IMG/VR virus record: IMGVR_UViG_2695420728_000009
Span: 1 to 26,294 of that record
Direction: 5' to 3' (one strand)
Origin: a virus
Taxonomy: Duplodnaviria > Heunggongvirae > Uroviricota > Caudoviricetes
Length of the DNA: 26,294 nt
The translations under genes were made by a program, and so were the position numbers. Every line of letters begins with the position of its first letter. Position 1 is the stretch's first letter. The notes below the pieces were generated by a model, which was given only the letters and a program-made list of their open reading frames with translations, was not told the DNA's origin and did not search any database. Shown here piece after piece: positions 2,558 through 14,772 of this stretch.

Positions 2558-3348
2558 TTACGCCAGTTGTACGGACACGAACGCATCAGGGTCAGCCAGC
2601 AGCATCAGCGGTGCTGACTGAATCATGGTGAACTCACGCGCCGGATCGCCGGTGGTCACCCAGTTTTTCGGGTAGCGGGCAGAGGCGTTAATACCTTCGC
2701 GCTGTGCGTCCGCATCCTGAATGCAGCCATAGGTGCGCAGACCGCGTGCCTGAGAGTTCCCCAGCACCATCGTGTTGTCCGGAAGGAAGTTCTTTTTGAC
2801 GTCGTTTTCCACGTACTGTCCGGAATACACGACGATCGCCGTATCGCCATACATCCCCTTATAGGACACCGCTTCGCCCAGGTCTTTTACCGCTGTCTCC
2901 AGCTCGGAATTAGAGCCGCGACGGGTATCCAGCTTCTCCTTGACGGCTTTGAAGGAACGGAACAGCGCCCAGCCTTTCGGATCAAACACGATGATATTCA
3001 CCACTCCGCTGGCGTTCAGCGCATAGGCTTCGATATCGTCGGTCGGGTCATACGTGGACTTGTCACGCTTGCTCCACTCCGTACCACCGGACTGTGTGAT
3101 GTTGTTCGCCGCACTGCGGCCCATATCCACCTCAACCGGATCGAAGGCTTCACCGGTCATGGTGTATTTGCCCTTAAGCACAGCAGAAACTGCCTGCATC
3201 TCTTCGACCTGAGCAATGGCCAGCTCTTCGTCTCGCATGTTCTGCATGATGATGCGACGGCGGCGGTAAGCCGGGTCCGCCAGATTCTGCGGATCTTCAT
3301 CCGGCAGGCGACGCAGGGTCATCTGCGGATTCACCTCATGCTTCGGCT
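2558..3348 (-). pseudogene. E: 3' fragment of major capsid gene E (codon ~83 to native stop), separated from its 5' part by the inserted element
   Basis: Translation (V)NPQMTLRRLPDEDPQNLADPAYRRRR...FVSVQLA matches lambda gpE residues ~83-341. In-frame upstream codons give P-K-H-E-V and then a TAG at 3347..3349 where E should continue. The ORF caller's start is a GTG inside E. Confidence 0.9.
3339..3348. repeat. Left copy of the 10-bp direct repeat TGCTTCGGCT (attL-type core) at the element/E junction
   Basis: Exact 10-mer at 3339..3348 and 14528..14537, each precisely where E homology breaks; its reverse complement lies within the E codons K-P-K-H. Confidence 0.75.
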
Positions 3349-3424
3349 ACATGAGTCAAATATGAAAGGATGTGAATGATTTGATTACGTTTTAGCTATA
3401 GAATTGAAATGGAAAATCCTTGAA

Positions 3425-3445
3425 TGCAATACAACGTGCAATACA
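3425..3445 (+). promoter_or_regulatory. Tandem pair of TGCAATACA motifs (12-bp period) near the left end; candidate integrase arm-type sites
   Basis: TGCAATACA at 3425..3433 and 3437..3445. The same tandem pair in the same orientation occurs at 14380..14399 near the other end, between the int start and the right junction. Confidence 0.35.
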
Positions 3446-3482
3446 TGGATGAAAACCATCACTCATTTAACAAGAGGAATCT

Positions 3483-4388
3483 ATGCGCTCACCCAACAGA
3501 ATGCATGAACGCTCAACATTTTATAAGTATATGTCGTTGAATACCGCGAAGATTGTTCTTGATTCATGCAGCCTTAGATGGAGTTCTCCGGTCCTATTTA
3601 ATGACCCTTTTGATGTTCCAAGAGAAGTTATGCCTGGTATTAACGAAATTAATATTGGCAAAGCTTTAGCCCGCAAGTTAATAGCGGAGTTGATTACCCC
3701 CAGAGAAGACATACAAAATTTAAACCCTAGAATTAGAACAATGCTAAGTGATTTCCAAAAGTCATTTCCTTTAGGCATACCCGCAGGATTAATTGAAAGA
3801 TTTCAAGAAATGGTAAACATTCCACCAGTTGGGATTGGCGCTCCTGCGGCAATACAAGAAATGAAAGATGTCTGGCGAGGAATGCTTAATAACAGAAGGA
3901 TTTTGTGTTTATCTGAGAGCCCTATAATCACTCCTATGTGGAATCACTATGCCGATAAATATAAAGGTATAGTTATCGAATTGGATTGTGTAGACTTTCT
4001 GGATAGCGCTTGGTTAATAGCCAAACCTATGAAATACACAGATGAAATGCCTCTAACTCACACTGCTGAAGGGATGGCCGAGTTGCTTTTCATGCCAGAC
4101 AATAAGTCAATTGAATATATCAATAATGAGATAATATTCATAAAAACAGAAGAATGGGCATATGAAAGAGAGTGGAGAATTTCAACCTACGCTAGGCCAA
4201 ATAGCACTGGTCAATATAGCGACTTAAAATTTCACCCTTTTGAGTTAAAATCTGTAATACTTGGTCCTCTTTTTGATGCCAGCGAGTTCGATGAAGTCGC
4301 ATCACTAGTTAAAATGTATCCAAGAGCGAAATTATTTAAAAGTTCATTTGGGAACGACAGAAAAATATCCATAGTACCACTACCTTAA
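3483..4388 (+). CDS. DUF2971-like protein (function unknown), AT-rich cargo gene
   Basis: 301-aa ORF with N-terminal FYKY...LFNDPFD and C-terminal EREWR motifs that I recall as DUF2971 hallmarks. Markedly AT-rich relative to neighbours; convergent with the packaging module. Confidence 0.55.
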   Translation: MRSPNRMHERSTFYKYMSLNTAKIVLDSCSLRWSSPVLFNDPFDVPREVMPGINEINIGKALARKLIAELITPREDIQNLNPRIRTMLSDFQKSFPLGIPAGLIERFQEMVNIPPVGIGAPAAIQEMKDVWRGMLNNRRILCLSESPIITPMWNHYADKYKGIVIELDCVDFLDSAWLIAKPMKYTDEMPLTHTAEGMAELLFMPDNKSIEYINNEIIFIKTEEWAYEREWRISTYARPNSTGQYSDLKFHPFELKSVILGPLFDASEFDEVASLVKMYPRAKLFKSSFGNDRKISIVPLP

Positions 4389-4419
4389 AAGGTCAAATGC
4401 TTTTGACAAATAAAATCTA

Positions 4420-4445
4420 TCGCCAGTTTTACTGGCGACTTTTAA
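4420..4445. terminator. Hairpin between convergent genes (DUF2971-like and Nu1-like); likely bidirectional terminator
   Basis: TCGCCAGT-TTT-ACTGGCGA perfect 8-bp stem at 4420..4438 followed by CTTTTAA, with an A/T run on the other side. Confidence 0.5.
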
Positions 4446-4494
4446 GCAACAAAGAACCACCTAAGCACTCTTCCTACCTATGGTTTCATTTGTT

Positions 4495-5046
4495 TTAACT
4501 TCGCTGATTATCCTTGATATACCTTTCAGCCATATCTGGAATGTTATCTGAGATCTGGTAAGCTCGAATAAATGCTTTACTGACCTCCATCTTAATGAAG
4601 TCCTGATACCGTTTTTCCATGCCAGGAAACTGTCGACAGATCGCAAGTGGAAGACTATCAATGATTGCTCCAACTTCCCCAGTTAATTTCGACAAGGCAT
4701 AAGTCGCAAATGCAGTGTCAATTACCTCACCTGTTTCGCTGGCATTCTTCAGTTCCTGTGCGTCGGCCTGCGCACGCGTAAGTCGATGGCGTTCGTACTC
4801 AATAGTCCCTGGCTGGAGATCTGTCTCGCTGGCCTGCCGCAGTTCTTCAACTTCCCGGCGCAGCTTTTCGTTCTCAATTTCAGCATCCCTTTCGGCATAC
4901 CATCTTATAACGGCGGCAGAGTCATAAAGCACCTCATTACCCTTGCCACCGCCTCGCAGAACGGGCATTCCCTGTTCCTGCCAGTTCTGAATGGTACGGA
5001 TACTCGCACCGAAAATGTCAGCCAGCTGCTTTTTGTTGACTTCCAT
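4495..5046 (-). CDS. Satellite small terminase subunit, Nu1-like: N-terminal ~100 aa near-identical to helper Nu1, C-terminal domain diverged
   Basis: 183-aa translation MEVNKKQLADIFGASIRTIQNWQEQGMPVLRGGG... differs from the helper Nu1 (20171..20716) at 2 of the first ~100 residues, then diverges (NASETGEVIDTAF... versus NARDSAEVVETAF...). No large terminase gene follows. Confidence 0.85.
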   Translation of the reverse strand: MEVNKKQLADIFGASIRTIQNWQEQGMPVLRGGGKGNEVLYDSAAVIRWYAERDAEIENEKLRREVEELRQASETDLQPGTIEYERHRLTRAQADAQELKNASETGEVIDTAFATYALSKLTGEVGAIIDSLPLAICRQFPGMEKRYQDFIKMEVSKAFIRAYQISDNIPDMAERYIKDNQRS

Positions 5047-5270
5047 TGTTCATTCCACGGACAAAAACAGAGAAAGGAAACGACAGAGGCCAAAAAGCTC
5101 GCTTTCAGCACCTGTCGTTTCCTTTCTTTTCAGGGGGTATTTTAAATAAAAACATTAAGTTACGACGAAGAAGAACGGAAACGCCTTAAACCGGAAAATT
5201 TTCATAAATAGCGAAAATCCGCGCGCCTGACGCCCCGTAGCCTGTCAGATCGCCGGAAAGGACCCGCCAG
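5047..5270 (-). other. cos-like packaging site of the satellite: cosB copy with variant cosN
   Basis: 5047..5220 is identical to helper 20717..20890 apart from a single base in the R3 element. R-type TerS sites seen at 5071..5086, 5114..5129 and ~5192..5203. The cosN-equivalent 12-mer (5224..5235, CGCCTGACGCCC) differs from the helper's AGGTCGCCGCCC at 5 of 12 positions. Confidence 0.7.
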
Positions 5271-5291
5271 CCAGAGCGGGCCCTAATTTCA

Positions 5292-5675
5292 TCAACCAAT
5301 CAGCTTATAGCGACCATCCCGTGCATTGCGGCGTACACGCTCAATCTTGAGGCATAGCGCCGCATCTGGCTTTTTTGGGACAGGTACGCGGCAATATTCA
5401 GAAGCGCGAGGAATATTATTTATCCAGTCGATCACTTCACTTAAATACCAGGCCTTACGCCCTTCCGTAACCTGCACACGCTCCGGGAACTCTCCACTAG
5501 CCTCAAGGTTTAGCAGTGTACGCCGACTCAGGGTTGTAATTTCCATCACCTGATTCATATCAACAAGGCGCTCGCTTAAACACATTTTGTCAGCGATAGC
5601 TTTTAATTCCTCTACAGCTGGATTCGGGTACATCATTTCGGCAATTGGCTTAAGGTCATTGTAATCATTTTGCAT
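5292..5675 (-). CDS. AlpA/Xis-family HTH protein with N- and C-terminal extensions
   Basis: 127-aa ORF; core MNQVMEITTLSRRTLLNLEASGEFPERVQVTEGRKAWYLSEVIDWI matches the AlpA (MerR-like winged HTH) pattern. Ends 2 bp from the cos region. Confidence 0.55.
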   Translation of the reverse strand: MQNDYNDLKPIAEMMYPNPAVEELKAIADKMCLSERLVDMNQVMEITTLSRRTLLNLEASGEFPERVQVTEGRKAWYLSEVIDWINNIPRASEYCRVPVPKKPDAALCLKIERVRRNARDGRYKLIG

Positions 5676-5686
5676 TGTATCCCCCT

Positions 5687-6028
5687 TTACACACGAGCCA
5701 GCGGCTGAACAGAAATACCTGAGCCAACAAACGCTGCAATCTTTACTGACAGTTCTTTTACAGACTCAGGCCAGTTCAGAGCATCAACATTTAAGACACC
5801 TGTCTTATAGACCTGAGCCTGTGTTTTTTTCGCGGTGTCGATTTGTACAGCGGAAACATAAACCGCTTTACCTACGCTCGAACCATCCCATACCACCAGT
5901 GCACCTGTTGCATCTTCCTGCATCAGTGGCGTAAATGCAGGAATTACCCCTTTATTAGCTGAAAATATCCCCAGCGTAGTCACCAGTGCTTCAGTGCCAG
6001 CCATGAGTTCAGTGTAATGAGTAGCCAT
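5687..6028 (-). CDS. Head decoration protein, lambda gpD-like (diverged)
   Basis: 113-aa ORF; PLMQEDATGALVVWDGSS...YKTGVLNVDALNWPE...AAFVGSGISV aligns with lambda gp[19 protein letters not shown]...[15 protein letters not shown]...[10 protein letters not shown]. Confidence 0.75.
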   Translation of the reverse strand: MATHYTELMAGTEALVTTLGIFSANKGVIPAFTPLMQEDATGALVVWDGSSVGKAVYVSAVQIDTAKKTQAQVYKTGVLNVDALNWPESVKELSVKIAAFVGSGISVQPLARV

Positions 6029-6037
6029 TGCTCCCCC

Positions 6038-7084
6038 TTAGCCAATGCGAACGGTAACAAAACGATTGATGCGGGCCGGTATTGGCTGTGGTGCTGAATG
6101 TGTCTGCACATATTCAATAGCCGGATCACCAGGCACAATATAGTTTTTCGGTGCAAGTTCGGCTTTAGTCAGCCCCATTCGGATTAGCTCCGGATCCTGA
6201 ATACCGCCATAGGCGACAATCCCCTGAAGAGCCGTATTGCCAAGCACCATCAAATCAGGATCAAGGAAATGTTTTTCAGTTCCGTCCTCGTCGGTATAAC
6301 GCCCGCTGTAAACAACAATCGCAACATCGCCCATATATCCTTTAAAACTCACCGAATCACCAAGGTCTTTAAGGGCCGTTTCCAGTTCGGAATTAGAACC
6401 ACGACGGGTATCCAGAGCCTCTTTTATCGCTCTGAATGAACGGTATTTCTTCCATACATTACCGCCCATAATGATGATATTAGTGACGCCCTCACTAAAT
6501 TCTGCGTAGCTCTCAATATCATCATTTGGATCAAAAGTTTCTTTATCCTTACCTGACCACTCAGTACCGCCAGACTGAGTGATGATATTTTGTGGTTTAA
6601 TATTCCAGTCCAGCTCATAACGTTCAATACCATCGCCCTCAATGATATTTTTCCCCGTTGTGATTGCCTGAACGGCAAGCCATTCAATACGTGCACGAAT
6701 AGCTTTAGCTTGATTTACAATCGCCTGTTTAACTTTAATATTACGCGCCCCAAAAGCATTGTATTGCTCAGGTGATACACCAGCAGGGCGCACAGCTAAC
6801 TTATTTGGATCAATGCTGCTTTTCGGCTTCATATAGCCTGGACGAATTGTTTTTGATTCGTACCCTTCGTCACGTGAAACTTTACTACCCACCATAGGAG
6901 AACAAAACGCTGCAATTGGGATATTTGGATCGTCGATTGTATCAAGAATAATATCGCGCGATCCAAACATTACCGAGCGAGTAAAAAACAAACTGGTAAA
7001 CAACGCATTTAGTTGTTTTTGTACATCTACAGCATTAACCACCTGTACAAGCTGGGTAGGCGAATATAAATCAACCATACGCAT
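6038..7084 (-). CDS. Major capsid protein, lambda gpE-like (diverged; roughly half identical by eye in the C-terminal region)
   Basis: ORF 6038..7291 aligns with lambda gpE over most of its length (e.g. ITQSGGTEWSGKDKETFDPNDDIESYA... versus ITQSGGTEWSKRDKSTYDPTDDIEAYA...; TRRGSNSELETA in both). Start set at ATG 7082..7084 (MRMVDLY, matching lambda MSMYTT). Starts at 7078 or 7099 are also possible; the longer N-terminal extension has no homology. Confidence 0.85.
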   Translation of the reverse strand: MRMVDLYSPTQLVQVVNAVDVQKQLNALFTSLFFTRSVMFGSRDIILDTIDDPNIPIAAFCSPMVGSKVSRDEGYESKTIRPGYMKPKSSIDPNKLAVRPAGVSPEQYNAFGARNIKVKQAIVNQAKAIRARIEWLAVQAITTGKNIIEGDGIERYELDWNIKPQNIITQSGGTEWSGKDKETFDPNDDIESYAEFSEGVTNIIIMGGNVWKKYRSFRAIKEALDTRRGSNSELETALKDLGDSVSFKGYMGDVAIVVYSGRYTDEDGTEKHFLDPDLMVLGNTALQGIVAYGGIQDPELIRMGLTKAELAPKNYIVPGDPAIEYVQTHSAPQPIPARINRFVTVRIG

Positions 7085-7294: not shown

Positions 7295-7744
7295 TTAAAA
7301 CGGGATATCATCTCCCCATTGCTCATTATCTCCCTCTGGTGGCTGGCTTCCTTGCTGATCTGCCTGTTGTTTTGCTCTGTTCAGTGCGTCAGTAGCCTGC
7401 CCCTGTTGGCCTTTTTTGCCGCCCGGTCGCACCGATCGCGCACTGATTACGCTGTCTGCGATAACCTGCCAGCCCTGCCGCGTTTCGCCGTTCTGTCCAG
7501 TCCACTGGCTCATCTGCATGTTACCCGCCACGCTCAGGAGTTCGCCTTTGTGATGCTTTGCCAGCGCGTCGGCTTGTCTGCCAAACGCCAGGACAGATAA
7601 CCACAACGTCGCCAGACCGTCATCCGACTGACTGCAGGGCAGTGATACCGCCATACGCGCCAGCGTCATGGGGGTGCCCTTGCTGGTCTGTTTTGTCTGC
7701 GGGTCGTCCACCAACCGCCCGTAAACTGATATTTGCGCCGTCAT
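7295..7744 (-). CDS. ssb: Single-stranded DNA-binding protein (SSB)
   Basis: 149-aa ORF with OB-fold-like N-terminus, Gly/Gln-rich linker and the characteristic acidic C-terminal tail ...DDIPF. Confidence 0.85.
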   Translation of the reverse strand: MTAQISVYGRLVDDPQTKQTSKGTPMTLARMAVSLPCSQSDDGLATLWLSVLAFGRQADALAKHHKGELLSVAGNMQMSQWTGQNGETRQGWQVIADSVISARSVRPGGKKGQQGQATDALNRAKQQADQQGSQPPEGDNEQWGDDIPF

Positions 7745-8043: not shown

Positions 8044-8274
8044 CCTTGTCTACCTTGTCTACCTGATTAGTTATCAGGCCAGTAATGGCGCGGGTTTCAG
8101 GGAGGTAGACAGCCCCAAATAGCTGTCTACCTCATCTCTACCCGTCTCCTTACCTGTCTACAAAAATGGGTAGATAAGGTAGATAACAGGTAGACAGTGA
8201 AAAATAGTTATCTACCTGCATTAATACATTGAAATAAAAGTATTTTCTTTCAGTCAGGTAGACAAGGTAGATAA
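8044..8274. repeat. Iteron array, GGTAGA(C/T)A in both orientations (10 or more copies); putative satellite origin of replication
   Basis: Copies of TGTCTACC / GGTAGACA / GGTAGATA at ~8046, 8055, 8103, 8123, 8153, 8169, 8178, 8190, 8208, 8257 and 8266, in a non-coding stretch immediately 3' of the primase-helicase gene. Confidence 0.7.
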
Positions 8275-8287
8275 CCATTGCCATTTT

Positions 8288-10039
8288 TTATAAAAACGCA
8301 TCGCAATCATCAGTAGTCGTTGCGTTGGTCTGCGTGACTCCCTTAACTTTTCGCGTAATATATTCATATCCGTAAACTTTCGCCGCTGACCTCATAGCCT
8401 TTCCGAACTCATTCACGCTCAAACATTTCCCCTTTCCTGTGTATGCCATGAAGGCCATATAGACACGGTAAAGGCTGTTTCTGGTCGTGTACTTCACGGT
8501 GTCACCACCACCGCCCATCATTAGCCCACGAGCTTCCTCCAGAAACTCCAGCGCCGCGCAAAGCTCAACAACCGGATCCGTTTGCTGCTTTATTGCCAGA
8601 GCTTCATCACCGTCACGCTGTTCCAGTAATAAAGCCCGTGCCTTTTCAGGGGCAGCAAAATTAGCCAGCAAGCGGCGGATAATTACGGGGATTTCTGCCG
8701 CTATCTTTTCCGGTAATTCCTTGTCTTTTTCGTCCTCCCTTACAATGTTGTCGAACCGGAAAATCACCCGACGGCGTGACACACCTCCGGCCCGTTCGGT
8801 AAAGATCATCGGGTCGTTATTGGTTGCCAGTACCACCGCCCTTATTATCGTCGTGAATCGCTTCTCATATTTCGGGTTAATTTCAACGGGATCGCCTCCC
8901 GTGATTTTCTTGATGCCCGTGCCTTCCCCCGTATATTTCGGCTGATCGGCAAGGACGATAAGACGACTCCCGACAACCTGCGCGCGCCCTCCTGCATCAT
9001 CGAGTGATGTCATCTCCGCGCTTACGGTGTTCTGTTTGCCAGCAAGCAGGGTGGCAATATGGGTAAATGTACTCTTACCGCTTCCCCCGTCTCCGGTGGC
9101 CTCAATGAACATCTGCCAGTCGTAGCGGTTCGCCATAATCATGTATAACGCGGCACATATACGCATCATCTTACGCGGGTCTTTTCTTGCAGCATGTTCA
9201 AGCCATTTATGGAAATTTGGCGCATTATCGCGGATGTTTTCCCCTGCTACTGGTGGCGTGTACTCAATGCCATTGTGCGTGGTGCTCCAGTGCTCCGGCG
9301 AGTGCGGAGAAAATTCCCCCGTTTTCAGGTTAAGCACACCATTAGTGAACGGTAGCAAATCACCGGACGGCTCCCCCATGGGGTCGGCAATAACTTTTAA
9401 CGCTTCCACGGCGTTATTGATTACACGTTTGCTGAACGTGGCCCTGTGCTCTGAATAGATCGCCACCATTTCGCGGCTCAGCTCCATTGTGCTGACCGGA
9501 CACCATACCCCGCCGCGCCATACGTGGACGATTTCACTTTCTGCATGAACACACACACCATCAAAGCGATCGGCAAGTAGTTGTGCACGTTCACTGTCTG
9601 CCATCTGTGAAAGTTGCGCCTTTTGCTTCGTCGGAAGATTAAGCACCAGACTTTCCCCACGCTCGCATTCCTCTTTGAGTCGCGGCAACTGCTCGGATAA
9701 ATCCACTGGGCTGGTGTCAGTAATCCCCGCGTATTCGTGTACGGTCTTCACTCCAGCCACAGCCAGTAACGTAACAATCTGCGTCATGCTGTGCTCTGTG
9801 ATATGTCCTGCGCGGTAAACACGCACACACTGACGATCTTCATCAATGATCCGGTAATCGGTGATATTTTTCAGTTGCTCATCAGCCAGCACGACAGGCG
9901 GCACATCGTCGGCGGCAATATGTTTACCCGCCCATTCCCGCCACTCTTTCGCATGGCTCCACGCATCACTACCTGCAAAGATGATTACCTCTGTCAGTCT
10001 GTCGCGTGGCTGTTTTTTTAAGTTCGGTGCCAGTTTCAT
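8288..10039 (-). CDS. Replication initiation protein: primase-helicase (P4 alpha-like C-terminal / D5_N-SF3 helicase type)
   Basis: 583-aa ORF with Walker A EATGDGGSGKST and the overall pattern of phage/plasmid primase P4-family C-terminal domains; N-terminal region resembles a toprim-like domain. Confidence 0.85.
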   Translation of the reverse strand: MKLAPNLKKQPRDRLTEVIIFAGSDAWSHAKEWREWAGKHIAADDVPPVVLADEQLKNITDYRIIDEDRQCVRVYRAGHITEHSMTQIVTLLAVAGVKTVHEYAGITDTSPVDLSEQLPRLKEECERGESLVLNLPTKQKAQLSQMADSERAQLLADRFDGVCVHAESEIVHVWRGGVWCPVSTMELSREMVAIYSEHRATFSKRVINNAVEALKVIADPMGEPSGDLLPFTNGVLNLKTGEFSPHSPEHWSTTHNGIEYTPPVAGENIRDNAPNFHKWLEHAARKDPRKMMRICAALYMIMANRYDWQMFIEATGDGGSGKSTFTHIATLLAGKQNTVSAEMTSLDDAGGRAQVVGSRLIVLADQPKYTGEGTGIKKITGGDPVEINPKYEKRFTTIIRAVVLATNNDPMIFTERAGGVSRRRVIFRFDNIVREDEKDKELPEKIAAEIPVIIRRLLANFAAPEKARALLLEQRDGDEALAIKQQTDPVVELCAALEFLEEARGLMMGGGGDTVKYTTRNSLYRVYMAFMAYTGKGKCLSVNEFGKAMRSAAKVYGYEYITRKVKGVTQTNATTTDDCDAFL

Positions 10040-10335
10040 TTTTTGCCCCTGAATGCGTTAATCATGCTTTTCATTTTCTGGATGTTTCCCCGCGCTTTTT
10101 CCCTGCTGATGGGCTTACTGCGGGGTGCGGCATATACCAGGGAAAAATCACGCCGGAACTGATAAACAGGCATCACGCAGTCATAGCTATACCCCTCACG
10201 GCGGTAAGTGATGCGCCGTTCTGCCACGCCTTTAATCGTTACCGTGCCGCCGTATTTATCGCGGTAAATATCGCCGTTCATAAATTCAGGCCGAGCGGGG
10301 CCGCTGGCAATAAAGCCAGAATTTTTCATTTCCAT
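10036..10335 (-). CDS. Hypothetical protein (99 aa), coupled to the primase-helicase gene
   Basis: 4-nt overlap with the primase start, same strand; no family recognised. Confidence 0.5.
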   Translation of the reverse strand: MEMKNSGFIASGPARPEFMNGDIYRDKYGGTVTIKGVAERRITYRREGYSYDCVMPVYQFRRDFSLVYAAPRSKPISREKARGNIQKMKSMINAFRGKK

Positions 10336-10352
10336 ATTATTTATTCCTCGAC

Positions 10353-10574
10353 TTAACTCGACTTATTTGATAGCAGGGCACTATTTATTGCGTCATTGAG
10401 TTTTTCTGCTGATTCATCAATAAGTGACAACAGGCCATAAGCAATATTTGCATCTTCATTGTCATTTATGCAATCAAGCCACATATTTAATATTGCTTTT
10501 GCTGAATTATTTAAAGTTAATGAACTTTCTGCACATGCTAACAATTTAAAAAAGACTTCCCGTTCTGTATTCAT
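10353..10574 (-). CDS. Hypothetical small protein (73 aa), AT-rich
   Basis: Compact in-operon ORF; no recognisable motif. Confidence 0.4.
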   Translation of the reverse strand: MNTEREVFFKLLACAESSLTLNNSAKAILNMWLDCINDNEDANIAYGLLSLIDESAEKLNDAINSALLSNKSS

Positions 10575-10766
10575 TTAATCCCCCACCAGCTTACTTTCTT
10601 CCTCAATCAGGAAACTAGCGACACTTCCCGAAAGGCGCGCCAGTAGGCTCGCCAGCGCGGATATATCAGCATCTGTAATTTTGTTCGGGTATACCTCAAG
10701 AAGGCGGCAAATAATTTCTGTCTGGTGCGCACGTTCAGCGGCTTCGTGTAATGTGATTTCCTGCAT
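10575..10766 (-). CDS. Hypothetical small protein (63 aa)
   Basis: Abuts the neighbouring ORFs with no gap; no recognisable motif. Confidence 0.4.
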   Translation of the reverse strand: MQEITLHEAAERAHQTEIICRLLEVYPNKITDADISALASLLARLSGSVASFLIEEESKLVGD

Positions 10767-10951
10767 TAATGCACCTCTTTTAATTCATACACTGCTGAAA
10801 TAATGACTTGTGATAAGCCATATTCTGATGATTCGCTTCTCACCGCAGCAATAGCCGTCTGAACATTAACAGCCTTCACGTTCTGAGTGATACCAATTGT
10901 GTGGCCCAGTGGGTTAACAGCTCGGGCAAATACACGGAAGGTTTTAAGCAC
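10766..10951 (-). CDS. Hypothetical small protein (61 aa)
   Basis: Tightly packed in the same operon; no recognisable motif. Confidence 0.35.
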   Translation of the reverse strand: MLKTFRVFARAVNPLGHTIGITQNVKAVNVQTAIAAVRSESSEYGLSQVIISAVYELKEVH

Positions 10952-11207
10952 GGCACACCTCCTGACGAATACGGGCGGCGAATATCATCACGTAGCCAGT
11001 TGGGGATTGCTGGCGGGCTTCCTGTTCGCTGGCGGCCTCGATGTGTATTACGCGTGGTTGTGCGGTGCTCAGGGCGATAAAACGCCAGATGTATTTATTC
11101 AGGTTGTGCGAATCCCGCCCTTGCGGGTGTGTGGTATGATTTCTCATAGCTACCTCGATACTGTTGCTATCGTTGGTGGTTAGACGCCCTGTATGTGTTG
11201 CGAGCAC
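10944..11207 (-). CDS. Hypothetical protein (87 aa or shorter), first gene of the leftward operon
   Basis: ORF begins just downstream of the divergent promoter region 11208..11286; an internal start (MRNHTTHP...) is possible. Confidence 0.35.
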   Translation of the reverse strand: MLATHTGRLTTNDSNSIEVAMRNHTTHPQGRDSHNLNKYIWRFIALSTAQPRVIHIEAASEQEARQQSPTGYVMIFAARIRQEVCRA

Positions 11208-11243: not shown

Positions 11244-11286
11244 GGTGTGTACCTATCAAGAATCATACTAAGCAATAGGTACACAC
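11244..11286. promoter_or_regulatory. Perfect 12-bp inverted repeat (GTGTGTACCTAT ... ATAGGTACACAC) in the divergent promoter region; candidate operator
   Basis: Arms at 11245..11256 and 11275..11286 separated by 18 bp; the right arm ends at the ATG of the RHH gene and overlaps its ribosome-binding site. Confidence 0.45.
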
Positions 11287-11481
11287 ATGTCAACTATCAT
11301 TCAACGTGATAAACAACCGAAAGGTGCAGGTAAAGCACCAGCATTCCAAGTCCGTATTAACCCAGAATTAAAAGAACAAATGGTTAATGTCGCTGCCAAA
11401 GAAGGGATGAGCTTAGGTAACTGGCTAAAAGAACTGGCTCGTGCCGAACTAATAAAACAAGGAATAACACCTAAAGGCTGA
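11287..11481 (+). CDS. Small ribbon-helix-helix-like DNA-binding protein (YlcI/YnfO-like pattern)
   Basis: 64-aa ORF; FQVRINPELKEQMVNVAAKEGMSLGNWLKELARAEL fits a beta-strand-helix-helix (Arc/MetJ-like) pattern and resembles the helper moron 21105..21338 (IRFPNQMIEQINIALDQKGYGNFSAWVIEACRRRL). Confidence 0.55.
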   Translation: MSTIIQRDKQPKGAGKAPAFQVRINPELKEQMVNVAAKEGMSLGNWLKELARAELIKQGITPKG

Positions 11482-11504
11482 TAATTTGCATAAAGGATTC
11501 TTCT

Positions 11505-12854
11505 ATGACAACAAGTCACAAAATGCTAGAAATCAGTAAAGAACAATTTGATGTATTTTTCTATGGTCGTACACCATACGTAAAAACCTTTTCGGAGGAA
11601 ATCTGTTGGTTCAAATTTATAAAGGATGATGTCACGATCTTAGCAACAATTGTTTTTTGTAAAATAGATAATGATTACAACGCTATATTTCTAGGTAGGG
11701 ATTTAGATAAAAAATTTAGAGCGATTAAAGTAATTGTATCCCGTGAATCTAAAGATGATTTAATTACTGATATGGAAAAAGCCATACCAGAGCTATTATC
11801 ACTACACAAGAACGGTTGTTTTATACAGGGTGACGAATCAGAGTCGGCATTTTCAATATTCCTAGCCAAAGTTCCAGAACATAAAAAAAACGTTTATCTA
11901 AGAATGCTACTTGAGGAACCCAAACACTATCCTGCATTTATTGTTATGCAAGAGTTAGCTTATTGGTGTAAAGATCCTGATGGAATATTCATCAGAGATT
12001 TCCAGAGTGCTTCATTTAACTCTCGCTTATTCGAACTTTATCTAAACGCAGTTTTCTACGAAATGGATTTCGTAATATGCAGAGATTATGCTCAACCTGA
12101 TTATATTATCTCAAAAAATGGCATTGATATTGCTGTAGAAGCTGCCACAGTTGCAGAACAAGAGGAACCTACCGAGAAATTGATACTTGATCATGAGGCA
12201 GTAGAAGATCTTCAGAGATATGTAAAAGAACAAATGCCATTCAAATTTGCCCGCACTCTATTAAAGAAAGTTAGGCATAAACCTGAACCCTTAAAATTAT
12301 GCTATTGGGAACTAGATCATACAAAAGGAAAGCCTTTCATTATTGCTTTACACGATTACTCACGCAGATTTTCGATGAGTATATCAATGCCAGCACTACA
12401 AAGCTATCTGTATGGTGTAGATATGGATTCTGGAAGTAAAATTGAACAACATTTATTTGAAAATCGAAGTATACAATCTAATTTTTTCGGCTCTAATAAA
12501 AATGAGAATGTCTCAGCCATATTACTTGCGACACATGCCACCATCCCAAAATTTGATAGGATGGGAGTAGTGGCAGGGATTGAACAAAAAAATGTCAAAT
12601 CCATCGTTAGAGGTATTAAAACTGATGAAGGCTGTACCCCAATGCCTTTTACTGCTCTTGTCAATGCACCTTCATATCAAGAACCATGGTGTACAGCAAT
12701 ATACATGTTTCATAATCCGAAGGCATTAAATCCTATACGCCCTGAATTATTCCCAAGAGTTATTCATATTTTTGAAGAAGATGGAGAAATAGTTCAATAC
12801 TTACCACCTAATTATATAATCTCATCAACTACGCACGTATTTGAATTTAAGTGA
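11505..12854 (+). CDS. Large unknown protein (449 aa), AT-rich cargo; candidate defence or toxin effector
   Basis: Long clean ORF 23 bp downstream of the RHH gene; very low GC compared with flanking satellite genes. No family recognised by eye; a weak PD-(D/E)xK-like stretch (QPDYIISKNGIDIAVEAA) is noted without confidence. Confidence 0.7.
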   Translation: MTTSHKMLEISKEQFDVFFYGRTPYVKTFSEEICWFKFIKDDVTILATIVFCKIDNDYNAIFLGRDLDKKFRAIKVIVSRESKDDLITDMEKAIPELLSLHKNGCFIQGDESESAFSIFLAKVPEHKKNVYLRMLLEEPKHYPAFIVMQELAYWCKDPDGIFIRDFQSASFNSRLFELYLNAVFYEMDFVICRDYAQPDYIISKNGIDIAVEAATVAEQEEPTEKLILDHEAVEDLQRYVKEQMPFKFARTLLKKVRHKPEPLKLCYWELDHTKGKPFIIALHDYSRRFSMSISMPALQSYLYGVDMDSGSKIEQHLFENRSIQSNFFGSNKNENVSAILLATHATIPKFDRMGVVAGIEQKNVKSIVRGIKTDEGCTPMPFTALVNAPSYQEPWCTAIYMFHNPKALNPIRPELFPRVIHIFEEDGEIVQYLPPNYIISSTTHVFEFK

Positions 12855-12859
12855 TTTCA

Positions 12860-12886
12860 AATCCTATGGGTTTACCCCATAGGATT
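12860..12886. terminator. 11-bp perfect-stem hairpin between convergent genes (449-aa cargo and alpA)
   Basis: AATCCTATGGG-TTTA-CCCATAGGATT at 12860..12886, 6 bp after the cargo stop codon. Confidence 0.5.
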
Positions 12887-12905
12887 ACATCCACTGTCTA
12901 AATTC

Positions 12906-13127
12906 TTACCACTCTCCCCTAATCCATGCCTGCACTTCTGAAAGACGATATGCAACAGCAGTGGAACCAATCTTGATCCGCTTAGGAAATTTTCCTTCCT
13001 TCTCCAGCTTCCAGCGTGTGCTGTTCGCAAGAGTGGTTAGCTCCCGACATTCTTTCTCACGGATCATACGATCGATATTAGGAATGTACTCCAGACCCTT
13101 TTTATCGACAATTGCCATTTTTTTCAT
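12906..13127 (-). CDS. alpA: AlpA-family transcriptional regulator / excisionase-like protein
   Basis: 73-aa ORF; RELTTLANSTRWKLEKEGKFPKRIKIGSTAVAYRLSEVQAWI matches the AlpA HTH signature; immediately downstream of int on the same strand. Confidence 0.85.
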   Translation of the reverse strand: MKKMAIVDKKGLEYIPNIDRMIREKECRELTTLANSTRWKLEKEGKFPKRIKIGSTAVAYRLSEVQAWIRGEW

Positions 13128-13128
13128 G

Positions 13129-14364
13129 TTAACCAGCCTTTTGTTTGAGGATTGTCACTTTTGAATCAGCACCTGCGATGCTATTGAGATATGTAGTCCA
13201 GAGTTCCAGAGCATCCAGTTTTTTAGCCATAAACTTACTCCGGTTGTAAACACCTGCCACGCCAGGTAGCGCATGGCCTAACAGTTGTTCTACTACATAA
13301 AATTCAACACCGAGATCACTTAGATGAGTAGATAGCGTTCTTCTAAGGTCGTGTAGTGACCATTGTTTTTCATGGCCCAAACGTTTACCGATTTTCCCCC
13401 CAATCTTGCTTACGCTTTCTCTAATTCGCAGACTTCCCAGCACATAACCAGTATGTTTTGTCTCTTCGTGAACATCCGTTACCCACTGTCGTAGAATTTC
13501 AGGTACTGGTCTGACGATTTCAACACCAGTTTTTGAGTGATCTTTTGGTACAGTCCAAACCCAACTTTCGAGATCCCATTCGCTCCATTCTGATAATCGG
13601 GCTTCACTCATTCGACATCCAAATACTGTACAAAGCACAAACATTTTTCGCGTGTATTCAGACATTAGTTTTAAATCAGGCTCGACAAAAATTGCCTTCC
13701 AGAGCTGGCCGAGTTCGGCTTCATCCAGAACCCGATCCCGCTTACCTGCAATCTGCCCCACATCACTCATGCGCAAATCCTTTAAAGCATCACACGTCGC
13801 GTACTGGCGTACCCGACAAAAACGAAGAGCTAATTTAGTGTCAGAAAAAACATACGCCGCCATAACTGGTGCATTACGTTTAATTCGGTCAAAACAGTCC
13901 AGCCATTCATATAGGTGAGTGTCATTTACGGGCAAATGACCGATATAGGGAAAGATATGCTTTCGAAATCTGCCAAGCGTTACAGCATGAGTTTTACGAC
14001 GCACCTTACAGTAATTTTCATACCAGTAATTTAGTGCATCCTCCACTGTGACCGGCTTTAAGCGTTCTTCAGCCTGAATCTTAATCTGGATACGCGGATC
14101 ACGTTTGTCAGCCAACCAACCACGGCACTCGTCGCGCTTTTCCCTTGCCTGTTTGAGTGACATATCAGGATATTTACCCAACGTTAGCCAGACCGGAGCA
14201 GCCCGGCCACCTGCTAACCTGTAGAAGAAAACAAAGCTCACAGCCCCTTTAGTACTCACACGAATAGAAAGCCCCTTTCCATCAGCAATGGTGATCTGCT
14301 TTTCTCTGGGTTTCCCCAGATATCCTTTAAGCGCTTTGTCGCTCAGTTTGTTCTCGCCAGCCAT
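13129..14364 (-). CDS. int: Tyrosine site-specific integrase (P4-type)
   Basis: N-terminus MAGENKLSDKALKGYLGKPREKQITIADGKGLSIRVSTKG... typical of the P4-integrase N-terminal domain; C-terminal catalytic region with HDLRRT and LLGH motifs and a Tyr-containing tail. Start set at ATG 14362..14364; the 17 upstream codons are extension. Confidence 0.9.
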   Translation of the reverse strand: MAGENKLSDKALKGYLGKPREKQITIADGKGLSIRVSTKGAVSFVFFYRLAGGRAAPVWLTLGKYPDMSLKQAREKRDECRGWLADKRDPRIQIKIQAEERLKPVTVEDALNYWYENYCKVRRKTHAVTLGRFRKHIFPYIGHLPVNDTHLYEWLDCFDRIKRNAPVMAAYVFSDTKLALRFCRVRQYATCDALKDLRMSDVGQIAGKRDRVLDEAELGQLWKAIFVEPDLKLMSEYTRKMFVLCTVFGCRMSEARLSEWSEWDLESWVWTVPKDHSKTGVEIVRPVPEILRQWVTDVHEETKHTGYVLGSLRIRESVSKIGGKIGKRLGHEKQWSLHDLRRTLSTHLSDLGVEFYVVEQLLGHALPGVAGVYNRSKFMAKKLDALELWTTYLNSIAGADSKVTILKQKAG

Positions 14365-14379
14365 TTTTAGCCCCAAAAA

Positions 14380-14399
14380 GCAATACAAGCTGCAATACA
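14380..14399 (+). promoter_or_regulatory. Second tandem pair of GCAATACA motifs (12-bp period); candidate integrase arm-type sites / int promoter region
   Basis: GCAATACA at 14380..14387 and TGCAATACA at 14391..14399; same motif, spacing and orientation as the pair at 3425..3445. Confidence 0.35.
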
Positions 14400-14526
14400 G
14401 AGATGATTGCAACACACAGATAACGAGGAAAATTCAGTGAAAGCACCAGATAAACTTATTCTTTATTATCAAAAGATTAAGTGTAAAAACCAGCAACTAC
14501 ACGAAAGCCTCAGAAAGCCATGCTAA

Positions 14527-14772
14527 GTGCTTCGGCTTGACATATCCCGGTGTAAATTCAGAGGTGGAGCCGCCACGGGAGCGGATAACCTCACCGGAAA
14601 CAATCGGCGAAACGTACAGCGCCATGTTTACCAGTCCCGGAATTTGTGAGAGATAGACTTTCTCCGTGGTGAAGGGATAGCTCTCACGGAAAAAGAGACG
14701 CAGAAACAGCGGATCAAACTTAAATTTCTTCTCATTTGCCGCCAGCAGCTGGGCGGTTGTGTACATCGACAT
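14527..14772 (-). pseudogene. E: 5' fragment of major capsid gene E (codons 1-82), truncated by the element
   Basis: From ATG 14770..14772: MSMYTTAQLLAANEKKFKFDPLFLRLFFRESYPFTTEKVYLSQIPGLVNMALYVSPIVSGEVIRSRGGSTSEFTPGYVKPKH matches the lambda gpE N-terminus, then reads into element sequence (LAWLSEAFV, stop at 14497). Confidence 0.9.
14528..14537. repeat. Right copy of the 10-bp direct repeat TGCTTCGGCT (attR-type core)
   Basis: Exact match to 3339..3348; E homology ends at 14527. Confidence 0.75.

What the first reader, a model, noticed from the sequence alone, without database searches (positions are those of the whole stretch)
3339..14537. Satellite-like integrative element inserted scar-lessly inside the helper prophage major capsid gene E
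Seen in sequence: lambda gpE homology runs 14772->14527 (codons 1-82, ...GYVKPKH) and resumes 3348->2558 (EVNPQMTLRR... to the native stop). The 11.2 kb in between is delimited by a perfect 10-bp direct repeat TGCTTCGGCT (3339..3348 and 14528..14537) whose reverse complement is E coding sequence (K-P-K-H codons). Joining right flank, one core copy and left flank reconstitutes ...YVKPKHEVNPQ... in frame, so precise excision would restore E. The insert has the standard satellite/PICI backbone (integrase and AlpA at one end, primase-helicase, iteron origin) and tandem GCAATACA arm-like motifs inside both ends. Inference: its integrase uses a conserved stretch of the helper capsid gene as attB, so the helper cannot make capsid protein while the element stays integrated. 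I do not recall such an arrangement being described, though I cannot search the literature.
Basis: partly seen in the sequence, partly recalled or inferred. Interest (0 to 1): 0.92.

Follow-up and report, generated by a model that had tools for sequence, protein, structure and literature searches.

The report
Known satellite embedded in prophage capsid gene
An 11.2-kb phage satellite sits precisely inside the major capsid gene of a lambda-like prophage and would restore that gene on excision; this is real, but it is a near-identical copy of the "helper-embedded PICI" 11capE published in 2023, so it is not new.

Summary
A perfect 10-bp direct repeat (TGCTTCGGCT, 3339-3348 and 14528-14537) flanks an 11,189-bp low-GC insert. 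Joining the flanks with one core copy restores a 341-aa lambda gpE reading frame. The 210-bp reconstituted site is 100% identical to intact capsid genes in E. coli genomes and in phages 2H10 and mEp332.

The interpretation (an integrase-driven satellite using the helper capsid gene as attB) is supported, but the novelty claim is wrong. This is the HE-PICI family of Tommasini, Mageeney & Williams 2023 (PMC10111431), site E:Phage_cap_E:80:
- The integrase is 410/411 aa identical to that of the type element Eco567.11capE.
- The core AGCCGAAGCA is listed in their supplement.
- The doubled TGTATTGC motifs lie at the published distances, about 81 and 132 bp from the core.
- Precise excision after mitomycin C is published for the type element.
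- I find the occupied junction in 173 of 5,426 complete E. coli genomes.

- The satellite carries its own E-like and D-like head genes, a cos site and a full-length Nu1-like TerS.
- It carries defence cargo: PD-T7-1 and a DUF2971/PDC-S31 gene.
- The resident helper is damaged, with an IS66-family element in the holin gene and a rearranged early region.

Residual points of interest are a satellite-specific cosN and a chimeric TerS.

The parts
2558..3348 (-). 3' part of helper major capsid gene E (from codon ~80 to the native stop), including one copy of the core
   Evidence: RefSeq annotates the equivalent as 'major capsid protein, missing N-terminus'.
3339..3348 (.). att core copy at the distal junction. 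In the element's own orientation this is attR; TGCTTCGGCT is the reverse complement of AGCCGAAGCA.
   Evidence: The identity block 'agccgaagca' is listed for E_Phage_cap_E_80 elements in the supplement of PMC10111431.
3425..3447 (-). Doubled TGTATTGC motif (caTGTATTGCacgtTGTATTGCa), a putative integrase arm or AlpA site. Its near edge lies 81.5 bp from the core centre.
   Evidence: The published position is 81 +/- 2 bp upstream of the attP centre.
3483..4388 (+). Cargo gene: a DUF2971 protein matching the candidate defence family PDC-S31, anti-oriented to the backbone
   Evidence: Pfam PF11185, E 9e-9. PADLOC PDC-S31, E 3e-31.
4495..5046 (-). Satellite Nu1-like small terminase. It is chimeric: aa 1-102 are ~98% identical to helper Nu1, while the C-terminal ~81 aa (103-183) have diverged.
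   Evidence: Pfam Phage_Nu1, E 3.6e-84. 72% identical to helper Nu1 overall. The C-terminal 84 aa queried (100-183) are <=42% identical to anything in 50,697 phage records. A terminator-like hairpin lies just downstream at 4439-4419.
5047..5270 (-). Satellite cos region. cosQ-like and cosB sequences are nearly identical to the helper's. The cosN 12-mer at 5224-5235 is GGGCGTCAGGCG, against GGGCGGCGACCT in the helper.
5292..5675 (-). Second AlpA-family HTH protein (127 aa), lying between the head genes and cos
   Evidence: Pfam PF05930, E 7.6e-9. PDB 8c3t, AlpA family. No similarity to RppC or to the gene at the equivalent position in EcCICFT073.
5687..6028 (-). Satellite head-decoration (gpD-like) gene
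   Evidence: Pfam HDPD, E 4e-15. 37.7% identical to helper D.
6038..7078 (-). Satellite major capsid (gpE-like) gene, 346 aa
   Evidence: Pfam Phage_cap_E, E 4e-41. 41.6% identical to helper E. 344/346 identical to the 11capE capsid protein.
7295..7744 (-). SSB
   Evidence: Pfam SSB, E 2e-15.
8047..8273 (.). Iteron-type replication origin: 10 copies of GGTAGAYA in both orientations, immediately downstream of the primase gene
   Evidence: 10 found against 0.8 expected; all lie in this 227-bp interval.
8288..10039 (-). Primase/helicase (D5_N + DUF5906 + Pox_D5)
10036..11207 (-). Small backbone ORFs: DUF4222, three short hypotheticals and an Icd-like ORF
   Evidence: RefSeq names in the near-identical element are given.
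11287..12854 (+). Variable-zone cargo: a HicB-like 64-aa ORF (11287-11481) and the PD-T7-1 anti-phage defence gene (11505-12854). GC is 0.33-0.38 and the genes are anti-oriented to the backbone.
   Evidence: PADLOC PD-T7-1, E 1.3e-153, full length. Pfam HicB, E 5e-4, just below the gathering cutoff (20.3 vs 21 bits). This is the only segment replaced in the closest complete-genome relative examined, L001. The same module occurs in another capE HE-PICI.
12906..13127 (-). AlpA (excisionase/activator) next to int
   Evidence: Pfam PF05930, E 2.7e-15.
13129..14364 (-). Tyrosine integrase, 411 aa, pointing into the element
   Evidence: Pfam Arm-DNA-bind_3 + Phage_integrase. 410/411 identical to the Eco567.11capE integrase.
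14379..14401 (-). Second doubled TGTATTGC motif, ~15 bp upstream of the int start codon. Its near edge lies 131.5 bp from the core centre.
   Evidence: The published position is 132 +/- 2 bp downstream of the attP centre.
14528..14537 (.). att core copy at the int-proximal junction (attL in the element's orientation)
   Evidence: Matches from unoccupied E genes begin exactly at this base.
14528..14772 (-). 5' part of helper capsid gene E (codons 1-82). In the integrated state it reads on into 9 foreign codons and a stop at 14497.
14828..20716 (-). Helper head/packaging genes upstream of E: D, C (S49 protease), B (portal), W, A and Nu1. All ORFs are intact.
   Evidence: The 68-aa ORF at 18068-18274, taken as W, is named only by position and by the RefSeq annotation of the near-identical prophage.
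20894..20905 (-). Helper cosN, with the canonical lambda cohesive end GGGCGGCGACCT
26..2555 (-). Helper genes downstream of E: FI, FII, Z, U and V (tail tube)

Best explanation
Identity. The 11,189-bp insert (3349-14537) is a helper-embedded phage-inducible chromosomal island (HE-PICI) of the published 11capE family. It sits at the integration site named E:Phage_cap_E:80.

Integration. Its tyrosine integrase recombines a 10-bp core in the satellite attP with the identical K-P-K-H codons of a lambdoid major capsid gene. The attP is flanked by two doubled TGTATTGC sites at fixed distances. Integration splits helper gene E without providing a replacement end, and leaves the satellite co-oriented with the helper late operon.

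Induction, as shown for the type element (not for this copy). On SOS induction the helper-satellite composite first excises and replicates as one unit. The satellite then excises precisely, which regenerates an intact E gene and a satellite circle.

Inferred steps:
- While embedded, the satellite is replicated passively, and it is probably transcribed by read-through from the helper late operon. That delays and reduces helper capsid production.
- After excision it replicates from its own iteron origin using its own primase and SSB.
- It is packaged through its own cos site by the helper's terminase, portal, scaffold and tail, probably as roughly four-unit concatemers (4 x 11.19 = 44.8 kb) in phage-sized heads.
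- Its own E-like, D-like and Nu1-like genes modulate head assembly and packaging.
- Its anti-oriented cargo (PD-T7-1 and a DUF2971/PDC-S31 gene) protects the lysogen from other phages.

This particular copy. The resident helper looks crippled: an IS66-family element sits in the holin gene, and the early region is rearranged relative to the late operon. Mobilisation would probably need a second lambdoid helper.
For: Scar-less reconstitution of E, with 100% identity of the empty site to intact genes.

Identity with the type element: the integrase is 410/411 identical to the Eco567.11capE integrase, and the satellite capsid protein is 344/346 identical.

Published site features are all present. 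The core AGCCGAAGCA is listed for this site in the paper's supplement. The doubled motif sits at the published geometry. int, alpA, primase, SSB and the head genes are all on the same strand as helper E.

The same nested arrangement is annotated in other complete genomes, and 173 of 5,426 genomes carry the occupied junction.

Published experiments on the type element: deep sequencing and qPCR after mitomycin C showed precise attB and attP formation. Satellite excision was detected only at 2 h, after the composite had excised and replicated, and reached 42-98%.

Origin iterons. A satellite cos region with helper-like cosB. Phage-length concatemer packaging of an E. coli PICI is cited in the paper's introduction. 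No terminator-like hairpin was found on the minus strand between E' and int, which is compatible with read-through.

Defence cargo.
Against: Nothing contradicts membership of the family. The limits concern function.
- No transducing or plaque-forming particles could be obtained for the type element, so helper dependence, packaging and transfer remain unproven for the whole family.
- In this window the holin gene is cut by an IS66-family element at about codon 28, and the DNA beyond it is an inverted exo/ydfD segment. The late operon is therefore probably uncoupled from Q/pR', and the read-through model may not operate here.
- The satellite cosN differs from the helper cosN at 5 of 12 cohesive-end bases. 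It is untested whether the helper terminase nicks it.
- The roles of the satellite E, D and Nu1 homologues are unknown. The paper's introduction (citing its ref. [quoted passage not shown]
Confidence: 0.93

Rival explanations
1. Stranded relic. The element is the same HE-PICI but is now an immobile passenger in a decaying prophage. It persists by vertical inheritance, and selection acts on its defence cargo (PD-T7-1, PDC-S31) rather than on satellite transfer. E will never be repaired in this lineage.
For: An IS66-family element interrupts the helper holin gene, and the adjoining early-region DNA is inverted relative to the late operon. The published survey notes that many HE-PICI helpers appear truncated ('potentially abandoned HE-PICIs'). 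No virions could be recovered even for the type strain.
Against: All satellite backbone ORFs are intact and nearly identical to the type element. Both att cores and all four arm-type half-sites are perfect. All helper head and tail ORFs in the window are intact. The IS66/essD junction was not found in any of 5,426 complete genomes, so the damage is recent and strain-specific. A co-resident or superinfecting lambdoid phage could still act in trans.
Confidence: 0.35
2. Accidental or off-target insertion. A PICI that normally uses a chromosomal site landed once by chance in a capsid gene, without any evolved relationship to that gene.
For: HE-PICI integrases do make off-target insertions, with 28 cases reported. 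One group with a nearly identical integrase sits in tRNA-Phe genes.
Against: The same site is occupied in 173 complete genomes, carrying several different cargo variants. The literature reports 201 instances at this site. The core matches the attB exactly, and the integrase subclade is monophyletic for this site.
Confidence: 0.02
3. Assembly chimera. The junctions are artefacts created by joining a satellite contig to prophage contigs at a short repeat.
For: None beyond the general possibility. The shared repeat is only 10 bp.
Against: Identical junctions occur in 173 independently finished genomes, one of them 100% identical over 210 bp. RefSeq annotates both capsid gene halves around the same element. 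Published read-level data exist for attL, attR, attB and attP.
Confidence: 0.01

Closest known systems
HE-PICI Eco567.11capE (E. coli NRG857c), site E:Phage_cap_E:80; Tommasini, Mageeney & Williams 2023, NAR Genom Bioinform 5:lqad036 (PMC10111431)
   Same: Same target codons in gpE, a 10-bp identity block and the same orientation. The integrase is 410/411 identical and the satellite capsid 344/346 identical. The gene order int-alpA-variable zone-primase-ori-SSB-E-D-alpA2-cos is the same, as are the doubled TGTATTGC motifs and the variant cosN.
   Different: - Core spelling: AGCCGAAGCA here against AACCCAAGCA in the type element. These are synonymous K-P-K codons, and both spellings are listed in the paper's supplement.
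- Variable zone: PD-T7-1 + HicB-like here, against a hypothetical protein plus a YlcI/YnfO protein in the type.
- Downstream of cos: a full 183-aa Nu1-like TerS and DUF2971 here. The type keeps only about 16 Nu1 codons, followed by HEPN + DUF262 cargo.
- Helper: the type's helper is integrated at icd. The chromosomal site of this helper is outside the window.
EcCICFT073, the model Gram-negative cos PICI (Fillol-Salom et al. 2018; 2019, PMC6739421)
   Same: Same backbone order, with E-like and D-like genes followed by a cos site, and lambdoid helpers. It relies on helper terminase and is packaged into phage-sized capsids.
   Different: - EcCICFT073 sits at a chromosomal site next to phoQ, not in the helper.
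- It has canonical cosN but a different cosB, and encodes Rpp directly after cos.
- Here the pattern is reversed: cosB equals the helper's and cosN is variant. The gene after cos is a Nu1 homologue with only weak N-terminal (wHTH) similarity to RppC (31% over 64 aa). No closer Rpp homologue was detected.
Capsid-forming PICIs (cf-PICIs; Alqurainy et al. 2023, preprint 10.1101/2022.09.08.507074)
   Same: A satellite that encodes its own major capsid protein and a small terminase.
   Different: cf-PICIs carry a complete HK97-type head and packaging module (protease, portal, connectors, HNH, TerS, TerL) and take only tails from the helper. This element has only E-like, D-like and Nu1-like genes, with no portal, protease or TerL.
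Regulated gene integrity / 'active lysogeny' elements (for example phage-like elements in comK, skin in sigK), from general knowledge and as discussed in PMC10111431
   Same: An integrative element splits a gene without supplying a replacement end, and precise excision restores it, so gene function is gated by excision.
   Different: In those cases the gated gene belongs to the host and regulation serves the cell. Here the gated gene belongs to another mobile element, the helper phage, and the gating serves the satellite.
Satellite P4 and SaPI packaging strategies
   Same: Like P4: an integrase/AlpA-type module, a D5-type primase, an Icd-like ORF and defence hotspots. Like pac SaPIs: a satellite-encoded TerS homologue.
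   Different: No Sid, Psu or Delta homologues were seen, and there is no C4/isrK immunity RNA at Rfam gathering thresholds. Packaging is of the cos type, not pac. The TerS shares its DNA-binding half with the helper, so it cannot by itself discriminate between the two cosB sites.

Membership tests
HE-PICI, E:Phage_cap_E:80 group (11capE family) | Integrated inside a late gene (E cognate) of a lambdoid prophage and co-oriented with it | tested here: met
   E fragments lie at 2558-3348 and 14528-14772, flanked by D, C, B, W, A, Nu1 on one side and FI, FII, Z, U, V on the other. int, alpA and the primase are on the same (minus) strand.
HE-PICI, E:Phage_cap_E:80 group (11capE family) | Integrase belongs to the HE-PICI clade / capE subclade | tested here: met
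   410/411 aa identical to the integrase of the type element Eco567.11capE. No tree was built, and none is needed at this identity.
HE-PICI, E:Phage_cap_E:80 group (11capE family) | 10-bp attL/attR identity block at about codon 80 of Phage_cap_E, with no replacement sequence for the target gene | tested here: met
   The core TGCTTCGGCT is the reverse complement of 'agccgaagca', which the paper's supplement lists for this site. The E' fragment runs into 9 foreign codons and a stop.
HE-PICI, E:Phage_cap_E:80 group (11capE family) | Two co-oriented doubled TGTATTGC motifs, 81 +/- 2 bp upstream and 132 +/- 2 bp downstream of the attP centre | tested here: met
   The motifs lie at 3425-3447 and 14379-14401. 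Their near edges are 81.5 and 131.5 bp from the core centres.
HE-PICI, E:Phage_cap_E:80 group (11capE family) | Precise, inducible excision that restores the late gene, occurring after composite excision and replication | not testable with these tools
   Shown by qPCR and deep sequencing for the type element only. Here only the in-silico repair could be made, and it is 100% identical to intact genes.
Gram-negative PICI (four-zone organisation: Integration, Bro/variable, Replication, Late) | Inward-pointing int plus AlpA at one end; a variable zone; primase, ori and SSB; a late zone with captured head genes and cos; 10-20 kb; no tail or lysis genes | tested here: met
   The element is 11,189 bp. 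The order is the same as in EcCICFT073.
Gram-negative PICI | Mobilisation by a helper phage (induction, packaging, transfer) | not testable with these tools
   Not demonstrated even for the type element, since no particles were recovered.
Rpp-type packaging redirection (EcCICFT073) | An Rpp protein, plus a PICI cosB that differs from the phage cosB while cosN is conserved | tested here: not met
   The 127-aa AlpA-like protein has no PDB match to RppC and no similarity to the EcCICFT073 gene at the equivalent position. The satellite Nu1 shows only weak N-terminal similarity to RppC (31% over 64 aa), although RppC itself is recovered from EcCICFT073. cosB is ~identical to the helper's and cosN differs.
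cf-PICI | A complete capsid-formation and packaging module (MCP, protease, portal, connectors, TerS, TerL, HNH) | tested here: not met
   Only E-like, D-like and Nu1-like genes are present.
P4-like satellite | Sid/Psu/Delta capsid-size and transactivation genes, and the CI/C4 immunity RNA | tested here: not met
   There were no Pfam hits of that kind among the larger ORFs scanned. Three short ORFs at 10353-10951 and the Icd-like ORF were checked only against PADLOC. No Rfam family reached its gathering score anywhere in the window.

The most novel reading that the evidence does not exclude
The capE HE-PICI lineage may have its own packaging identity, which the published description does not discuss.

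All five capE HE-PICIs I inspected carry a variant cohesive-end site, GGGCGTCAGGCG, which differs at 5 of 12 bases. It sits next to cosB and cosQ sequences that match the helper. Their helpers, and the chromosomal PICI EcCICFT073, keep the canonical GGGCGGCGACCT.

A sub-lineage (32 of 5,426 genomes, including this window) also encodes a chimeric TerS. Its DNA-binding and dimerisation half is ~98% identical to the helper's. Its C-terminal half, which in lambda Nu1 contacts gpA, is <=42% identical to every Nu1 in 50,697 phage records.

These features could bias terminase toward the satellite. They could also poison helper packaging through mixed TerS oligomers, or prevent viable hybrid-ended molecules from being packaged from the two co-oriented cos sites of the unexcised composite. 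Any of these would be a packaging-hijack mechanism distinct from Rpp and from SaPI TerS/Ppi.
Probability: 0.2. Interest if true: 0.5.

Novelty: already known. Interest (0 to 1): 0.2.

Why it matters
The arrangement is interesting biology. A parasite of a virus lodges in the virus's own capsid gene, so it gates capsid production by its own excision and gets replicated and probably transcribed in cis.

That insight was published in 2022/2023 with this very element family, this very site and 201 instances, so the window adds another allele rather than a discovery.

What this copy does add:
- It is an example of modular cargo exchange in the two dynamic zones (PD-T7-1; DUF2971/PDC-S31 with a TerS gene).
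- It gives a clear view of a satellite-specific cosN and a chimeric TerS, which could be tested for a role in packaging competition.
- It is a case of a HE-PICI stranded in a helper freshly damaged by an IS66-family element.

Tried and rejected
- Genome-contig scan for the variant cosN plus flanks (TACGGGGCGTCAGGCGCGC). It gave 11 hits, all chance matches in GC-rich unrelated taxa such as Streptomyces and MAGs. The one-genome-per-species set evidently lacks the element, so the scan was uninformative.
- Rfam scan of the whole window for P4-type C4/isrK immunity RNAs, which have been reported in some HE-PICIs. Nothing reached a gathering threshold.
- Search for an Rpp homologue. The 127-aa AlpA-like protein gave no PDB match to RppC and no BLASTP similarity to the EcCICFT073 gene at the equivalent position. 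RppC itself was located in EcCICFT073. It shows only weak wHTH-level similarity to the satellite Nu1.
- Search of the paper's supplements for Nu1, terS or HDPD, to see whether TerS-bearing capE HE-PICIs were catalogued. There were no hits, but the stored genotype table is truncated, so this cannot be decided.
- Search for the IS66/essD junction in complete genomes, to find the source strain or the other end of the rearrangement. No genome has the exact junction.
- The 10-bp repeat as a statistical argument. I rejected it because it is not significant alone. The reconstitution test carries the weight.
- Assembly artefact, off-target insertion, cf-PICI and P4-like identities were all considered and rejected. 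See the rival explanations and membership tests.

Full report
**1. The observation**

The decamer TGCTTCGGCT occurs exactly twice in the window, at 3339-3348 and 14528-14537. The neighbouring bases differ on both sides, so the identity block is exactly 10 bp.

A single repeated 10-mer is not statistically remarkable. With one mismatch allowed, 53 of 100 shuffles gave at least two matches. The decisive test is reconstitution:
- Joining the left flank, one core copy and the right flank gives, on the minus strand, an uninterrupted 341-aa reading frame (MSMYTT...GYVKPKHEVNPQ...SVQLA*) of the lambda gpE type.
- The 210-bp in-silico empty site is 100% identical to intact 'major capsid protein' genes in complete E. 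coli genomes. At least 80% of it is covered in 3,103 of 5,426 genomes.
- It is also 100% identical to the isolated phages 2H10 and mEp332.

GC content falls from 0.55-0.62 in the flanks to 0.33-0.53 inside the insert.

The occupied int-side junction is present in 173 of 5,426 complete E. coli genomes. Matches from unoccupied genes begin exactly at the first base of the core. The junctions are therefore real and recurrent, not an assembly artefact.

**2. Anatomy of the insert (3349-14537, 11,189 bp)**

All backbone genes lie on the minus strand, the same strand as helper E. In the element's own orientation the order is as follows.
- Tyrosine integrase, 13129-14364, 411 aa.
- AlpA, 12906-13127.
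- An anti-oriented variable zone, 11287-12854.
- Small ORFs including an Icd-like ORF and DUF4222, 10036-11207.
- A D5_N/DUF5906 primase, 8288-10039.
- An origin with ten GGTAGAYA iterons confined to 8047-8273, against 0.8 expected.
- An 85-aa ORF, then SSB at 7295-7744.
- A gpE-like major capsid gene, 6038-7078, 346 aa.
- A gpD-like decoration gene, 5687-6028.
- A second AlpA-family gene, 5292-5675.
- A cos region, about 5047-5270.
- A full-length Nu1-like small terminase, 4495-5046, followed by a terminator-like hairpin.
- An anti-oriented DUF2971 gene, 3483-4388.

The GCAATACA doublets at 3426-3445 and 14380-14399 are strongly over-represented, with 6 matches in the window against 1.1 expected.

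**3. What it is**

A literature search found the arrangement already published. [quoted passage not shown]

Their type element is Eco567.11capE in E. coli NRG857c. They describe it as an 11-kb PICI integrated in, and disrupting, a close relative of lambda gene E inside an icd-integrated prophage, while bearing its own capsid gene. They report a 10-bp attL/attR identity block and 201 elements at this site, which they name E:Phage_cap_E:80. They also report a doubled motif, tgTGTATTGCantgTGTATTGCa, lying 81 +/- 2 bp upstream and 132 +/- 2 bp downstream of the attP centre.

I fetched the type element and compared it directly with the window:
- The window's integrase is 410/411 aa identical.
- The satellite capsid protein is 344/346 identical.
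- The core in the window, AGCCGAAGCA in the element's orientation, is listed verbatim for E_Phage_cap_E_80 elements in the paper's supplement. The type element has the synonymous variant AACCCAAGCA.
- The near edges of the two doubled motifs lie 81.5 and 131.5 bp from the core centres.

Every sequence-level defining feature of the family is met. The same nested organisation, with two capsid pseudogene halves around the element, is annotated in other complete genomes.

**4. How it works**

Shown, for the type element only: after mitomycin C the composite excises from icd and replicates. Satellite excision is detected later, at 2 h, reaches 42-98% of excised composites, and is precise. It produces the predicted attB (repaired capsid gene) and attP. 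No plaque-forming particles could be recovered.

Inferred by those authors:
- Helper E cannot be expressed until the satellite leaves.
- The satellite is replicated passively and is probably transcribed by late-operon read-through.
- The helper supplies SOS sensing, structural proteins and cos packaging.
- The satellite's own capsid gene may act as a backup copy.

My additions from this window:
- No terminator-like hairpin lies on the minus strand between E' and int. This is compatible with read-through but is weak evidence.
- The second doubled motif lies about 15 bp upstream of the int start codon, so occupancy of that site could also regulate int (inference).
- Four satellite units total 44.8 kb. 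That fits the phage-length concatemer packaging cited in the paper for an E. coli PICI.

**5. Points not discussed in the published main text**

(a) cos. A 559-bp stretch of the satellite (4709-5267) is 95.7% identical to the helper's cos-Nu1 region (20379-20937). Within it the cosQ-side and cosB sequences are almost identical, but the 12-base cohesive end differs at 5 positions: GGGCGTCAGGCG in the satellite against the canonical GGGCGGCGACCT in the helper.

The variant is present in all five capE HE-PICIs I inspected, including the type element. Their helpers have the canonical sequence, as do both cos sites of the chromosomal PICI EcCICFT073. About 158 genomes have a best match of at least 90% to an 80-bp probe centred on the variant. 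That is similar to the 173 genomes with occupied junctions, but this count is only approximate.

This is the reverse of the EcCICFT073/Rpp logic, in which cosN is conserved and cosB differs.

(b) TerS. The paper states that 11capE lacks terS. The type element indeed keeps only about 16 Nu1 codons. The window's element, and those in 32 of 5,426 complete genomes, encode a full 183-aa Nu1 homologue (Pfam E 3.6e-84). The contexts I examined for these genomes were again capE HE-PICIs.

The protein is chimeric:
- Residues 1-102 are ~98% identical to helper Nu1. Residues 1-98 nearly match the lambda TerS 1-98 fragment crystallised with RppC (PDB 6hn7).
- The C-terminal half has diverged. An 84-aa query covering residues 100-183 is at most 42% identical to anything in 50,697 phage records.

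From general knowledge of lambda terminase, the Nu1 C-terminus contacts gpA. A changed C-terminus on a helper-identical DNA-binding domain could therefore interfere with, or re-route, packaging. This is speculation and untested.

(c) Cargo.
- The 449-aa ORF at 11505-12854 is a full-length match to the defence protein PD-T7-1 (PADLOC E 1.3e-153). It is preceded by a HicB-like 64-aa ORF.
- The DUF2971 protein matches the candidate defence family PDC-S31.
- The PD-T7-1 segment (11434-12905) is the only part replaced in the closest complete-genome relative examined, L001.
- The same module occurs in another capE HE-PICI that has a different late-zone cargo.

The element is therefore a mosaic of known modules. 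This is consistent with the 'dynamic zones' described in the paper.

**6. State of the helper in this window**

All helper head and tail ORFs visible here are intact: V, U, Z, FII, FI on one side and D, C, B, W, A, Nu1 on the other. Most are supported by Pfam; the short ORF taken as W is named by position and by the RefSeq annotation of a near-identical prophage.

The lysis cassette is damaged:
- Homology to an intact cassette stops at window position 23390, about codon 28 of the holin gene essD/S.
- At that point an IS66-family element begins (tnpA, tnpB and tnpC at 23475-25891; terminal GTAAGCG inverted repeats at 23390 and 25921).
- Beyond the IS, 25922-26294 matches the 5' end of an exonuclease gene plus ydfD from a lambdoid early-left region.
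- Compared with the prophage of strain G3/10, this segment is in the opposite orientation relative to the late genes.

The late operon is therefore probably separated from Q/pR'. The exact IS/holin junction is not present in any complete genome, so the damage looks recent and strain-specific. For this copy, mobilisation would probably require another lambdoid helper. The paper notes that many HE-PICI helpers look truncated.

**7. Comparison with known systems, and membership**

The element is a member of the HE-PICI E:Phage_cap_E:80 group. All four sequence-defined criteria are met, and inducible excision is not testable here.

It also fits the Gram-negative PICI four-zone organisation and is collinear with EcCICFT073. 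It is not any of the following:
- An Rpp-type system. The only Rpp-like signal is weak N-terminal (wHTH) similarity of the satellite Nu1 to RppC, and the cosB/cosN pattern is the reverse of the Rpp case.
- A cf-PICI. It has no portal, protease or TerL.
- A P4-like satellite. No Sid, Psu or Delta was found, and no C4/isrK RNA.

Conceptually it works like 'regulated gene integrity' elements, except that the gated gene belongs to another mobile element.

**8. Verdict**

Novelty: already known. This copy is a new cargo combination of a known element.

Residual interest lies in the satellite-specific cosN and the chimeric TerS, which may point to an uncharacterised packaging strategy. I put the probability of that at about 0.2.

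Overall interest: 0.2.

Noticed in passing
window 23390-25921 (IS), 23258-23390 (holin remnant): An IS66-family element (tnpA 23475-23900, tnpB 23897-24247, tnpC 24278-25891; GTAAGCG terminal repeats) interrupts the helper holin gene essD/S at about codon 28. The exact junction is absent from 5,426 complete E. coli genomes.
   Followed up: partly
window 25922-26294: The DNA beyond the IS66 element is the 5' end of a lambdoid exonuclease gene plus ydfD. Compared with the prophage of strain G3/10, it is inverted relative to the late operon. This suggests an IS-associated inversion or rearrangement that separates the late genes from Q/pR'. The other breakpoint lies outside the window.
   Followed up: partly
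window 5224-5235 (satellite cosN) vs 20894-20905 (helper cosN): The satellite cohesive-end sequence GGGCGTCAGGCG differs at 5 of 12 bases from the helper's canonical GGGCGGCGACCT, although the adjacent cosB and cosQ-side sequences are nearly identical. The variant is present in all five capE HE-PICIs checked, including the type element. It is absent from their helpers and from EcCICFT073. The term cosN does not occur in the published paper's main text.
   Followed up: partly
window 4495-5046: The satellite encodes a full-length Nu1-like TerS. Residues 1-102 are ~98% identical to helper Nu1. An 84-aa C-terminal query (aa 100-183) is <=42% identical to any phage record. The gene is found, >=99% conserved, in 32 of 5,426 complete genomes. 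The published type element has only a ~16-codon stub, and the paper describes it as lacking terS.
   Followed up: partly
window 11287-12854: A low-GC (0.33-0.38), anti-oriented module carries a HicB-like 64-aa ORF and a full-length PD-T7-1 defence gene. It replaces the SWIM + DUF2971 genes of the closest relative examined (L001). The identical module sits in another capE HE-PICI (strain SCU-316) that has a different late-zone cargo.
   Followed up: partly
window 3483-4388: An anti-oriented DUF2971 gene at the distal end of the satellite matches the PADLOC candidate defence family PDC-S31 (E 3e-31). The type element carries HEPN + DUF262 genes at the same position.
   Followed up: no
window 5292-5675: A second, longer AlpA-family HTH protein (127 aa) lies between the satellite D-like gene and cos. 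It is conserved in the type element and its relatives (WP_001178671.1) and is unrelated to Rpp. Its role is unknown.
   Followed up: partly
window 14497-14772: In the integrated state the helper E 5' fragment remains an open frame: 82 native codons, 9 foreign codons, then a stop. It sits directly behind D in the late operon, so a truncated gpE N-terminal peptide could be made. The effect is unknown.
   Followed up: no
window 21105-21805: Two anti-oriented moron-like genes (DUF3950/YnfO-like and DUF1398/YdfO-like) sit between helper cos and the Rz/R lysis genes, as in Qin-type prophages. YlcI/YnfO-family genes are also annotated in the variable zones of 11capE, EcCICFT073 and another capE HE-PICI.
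   Followed up: no
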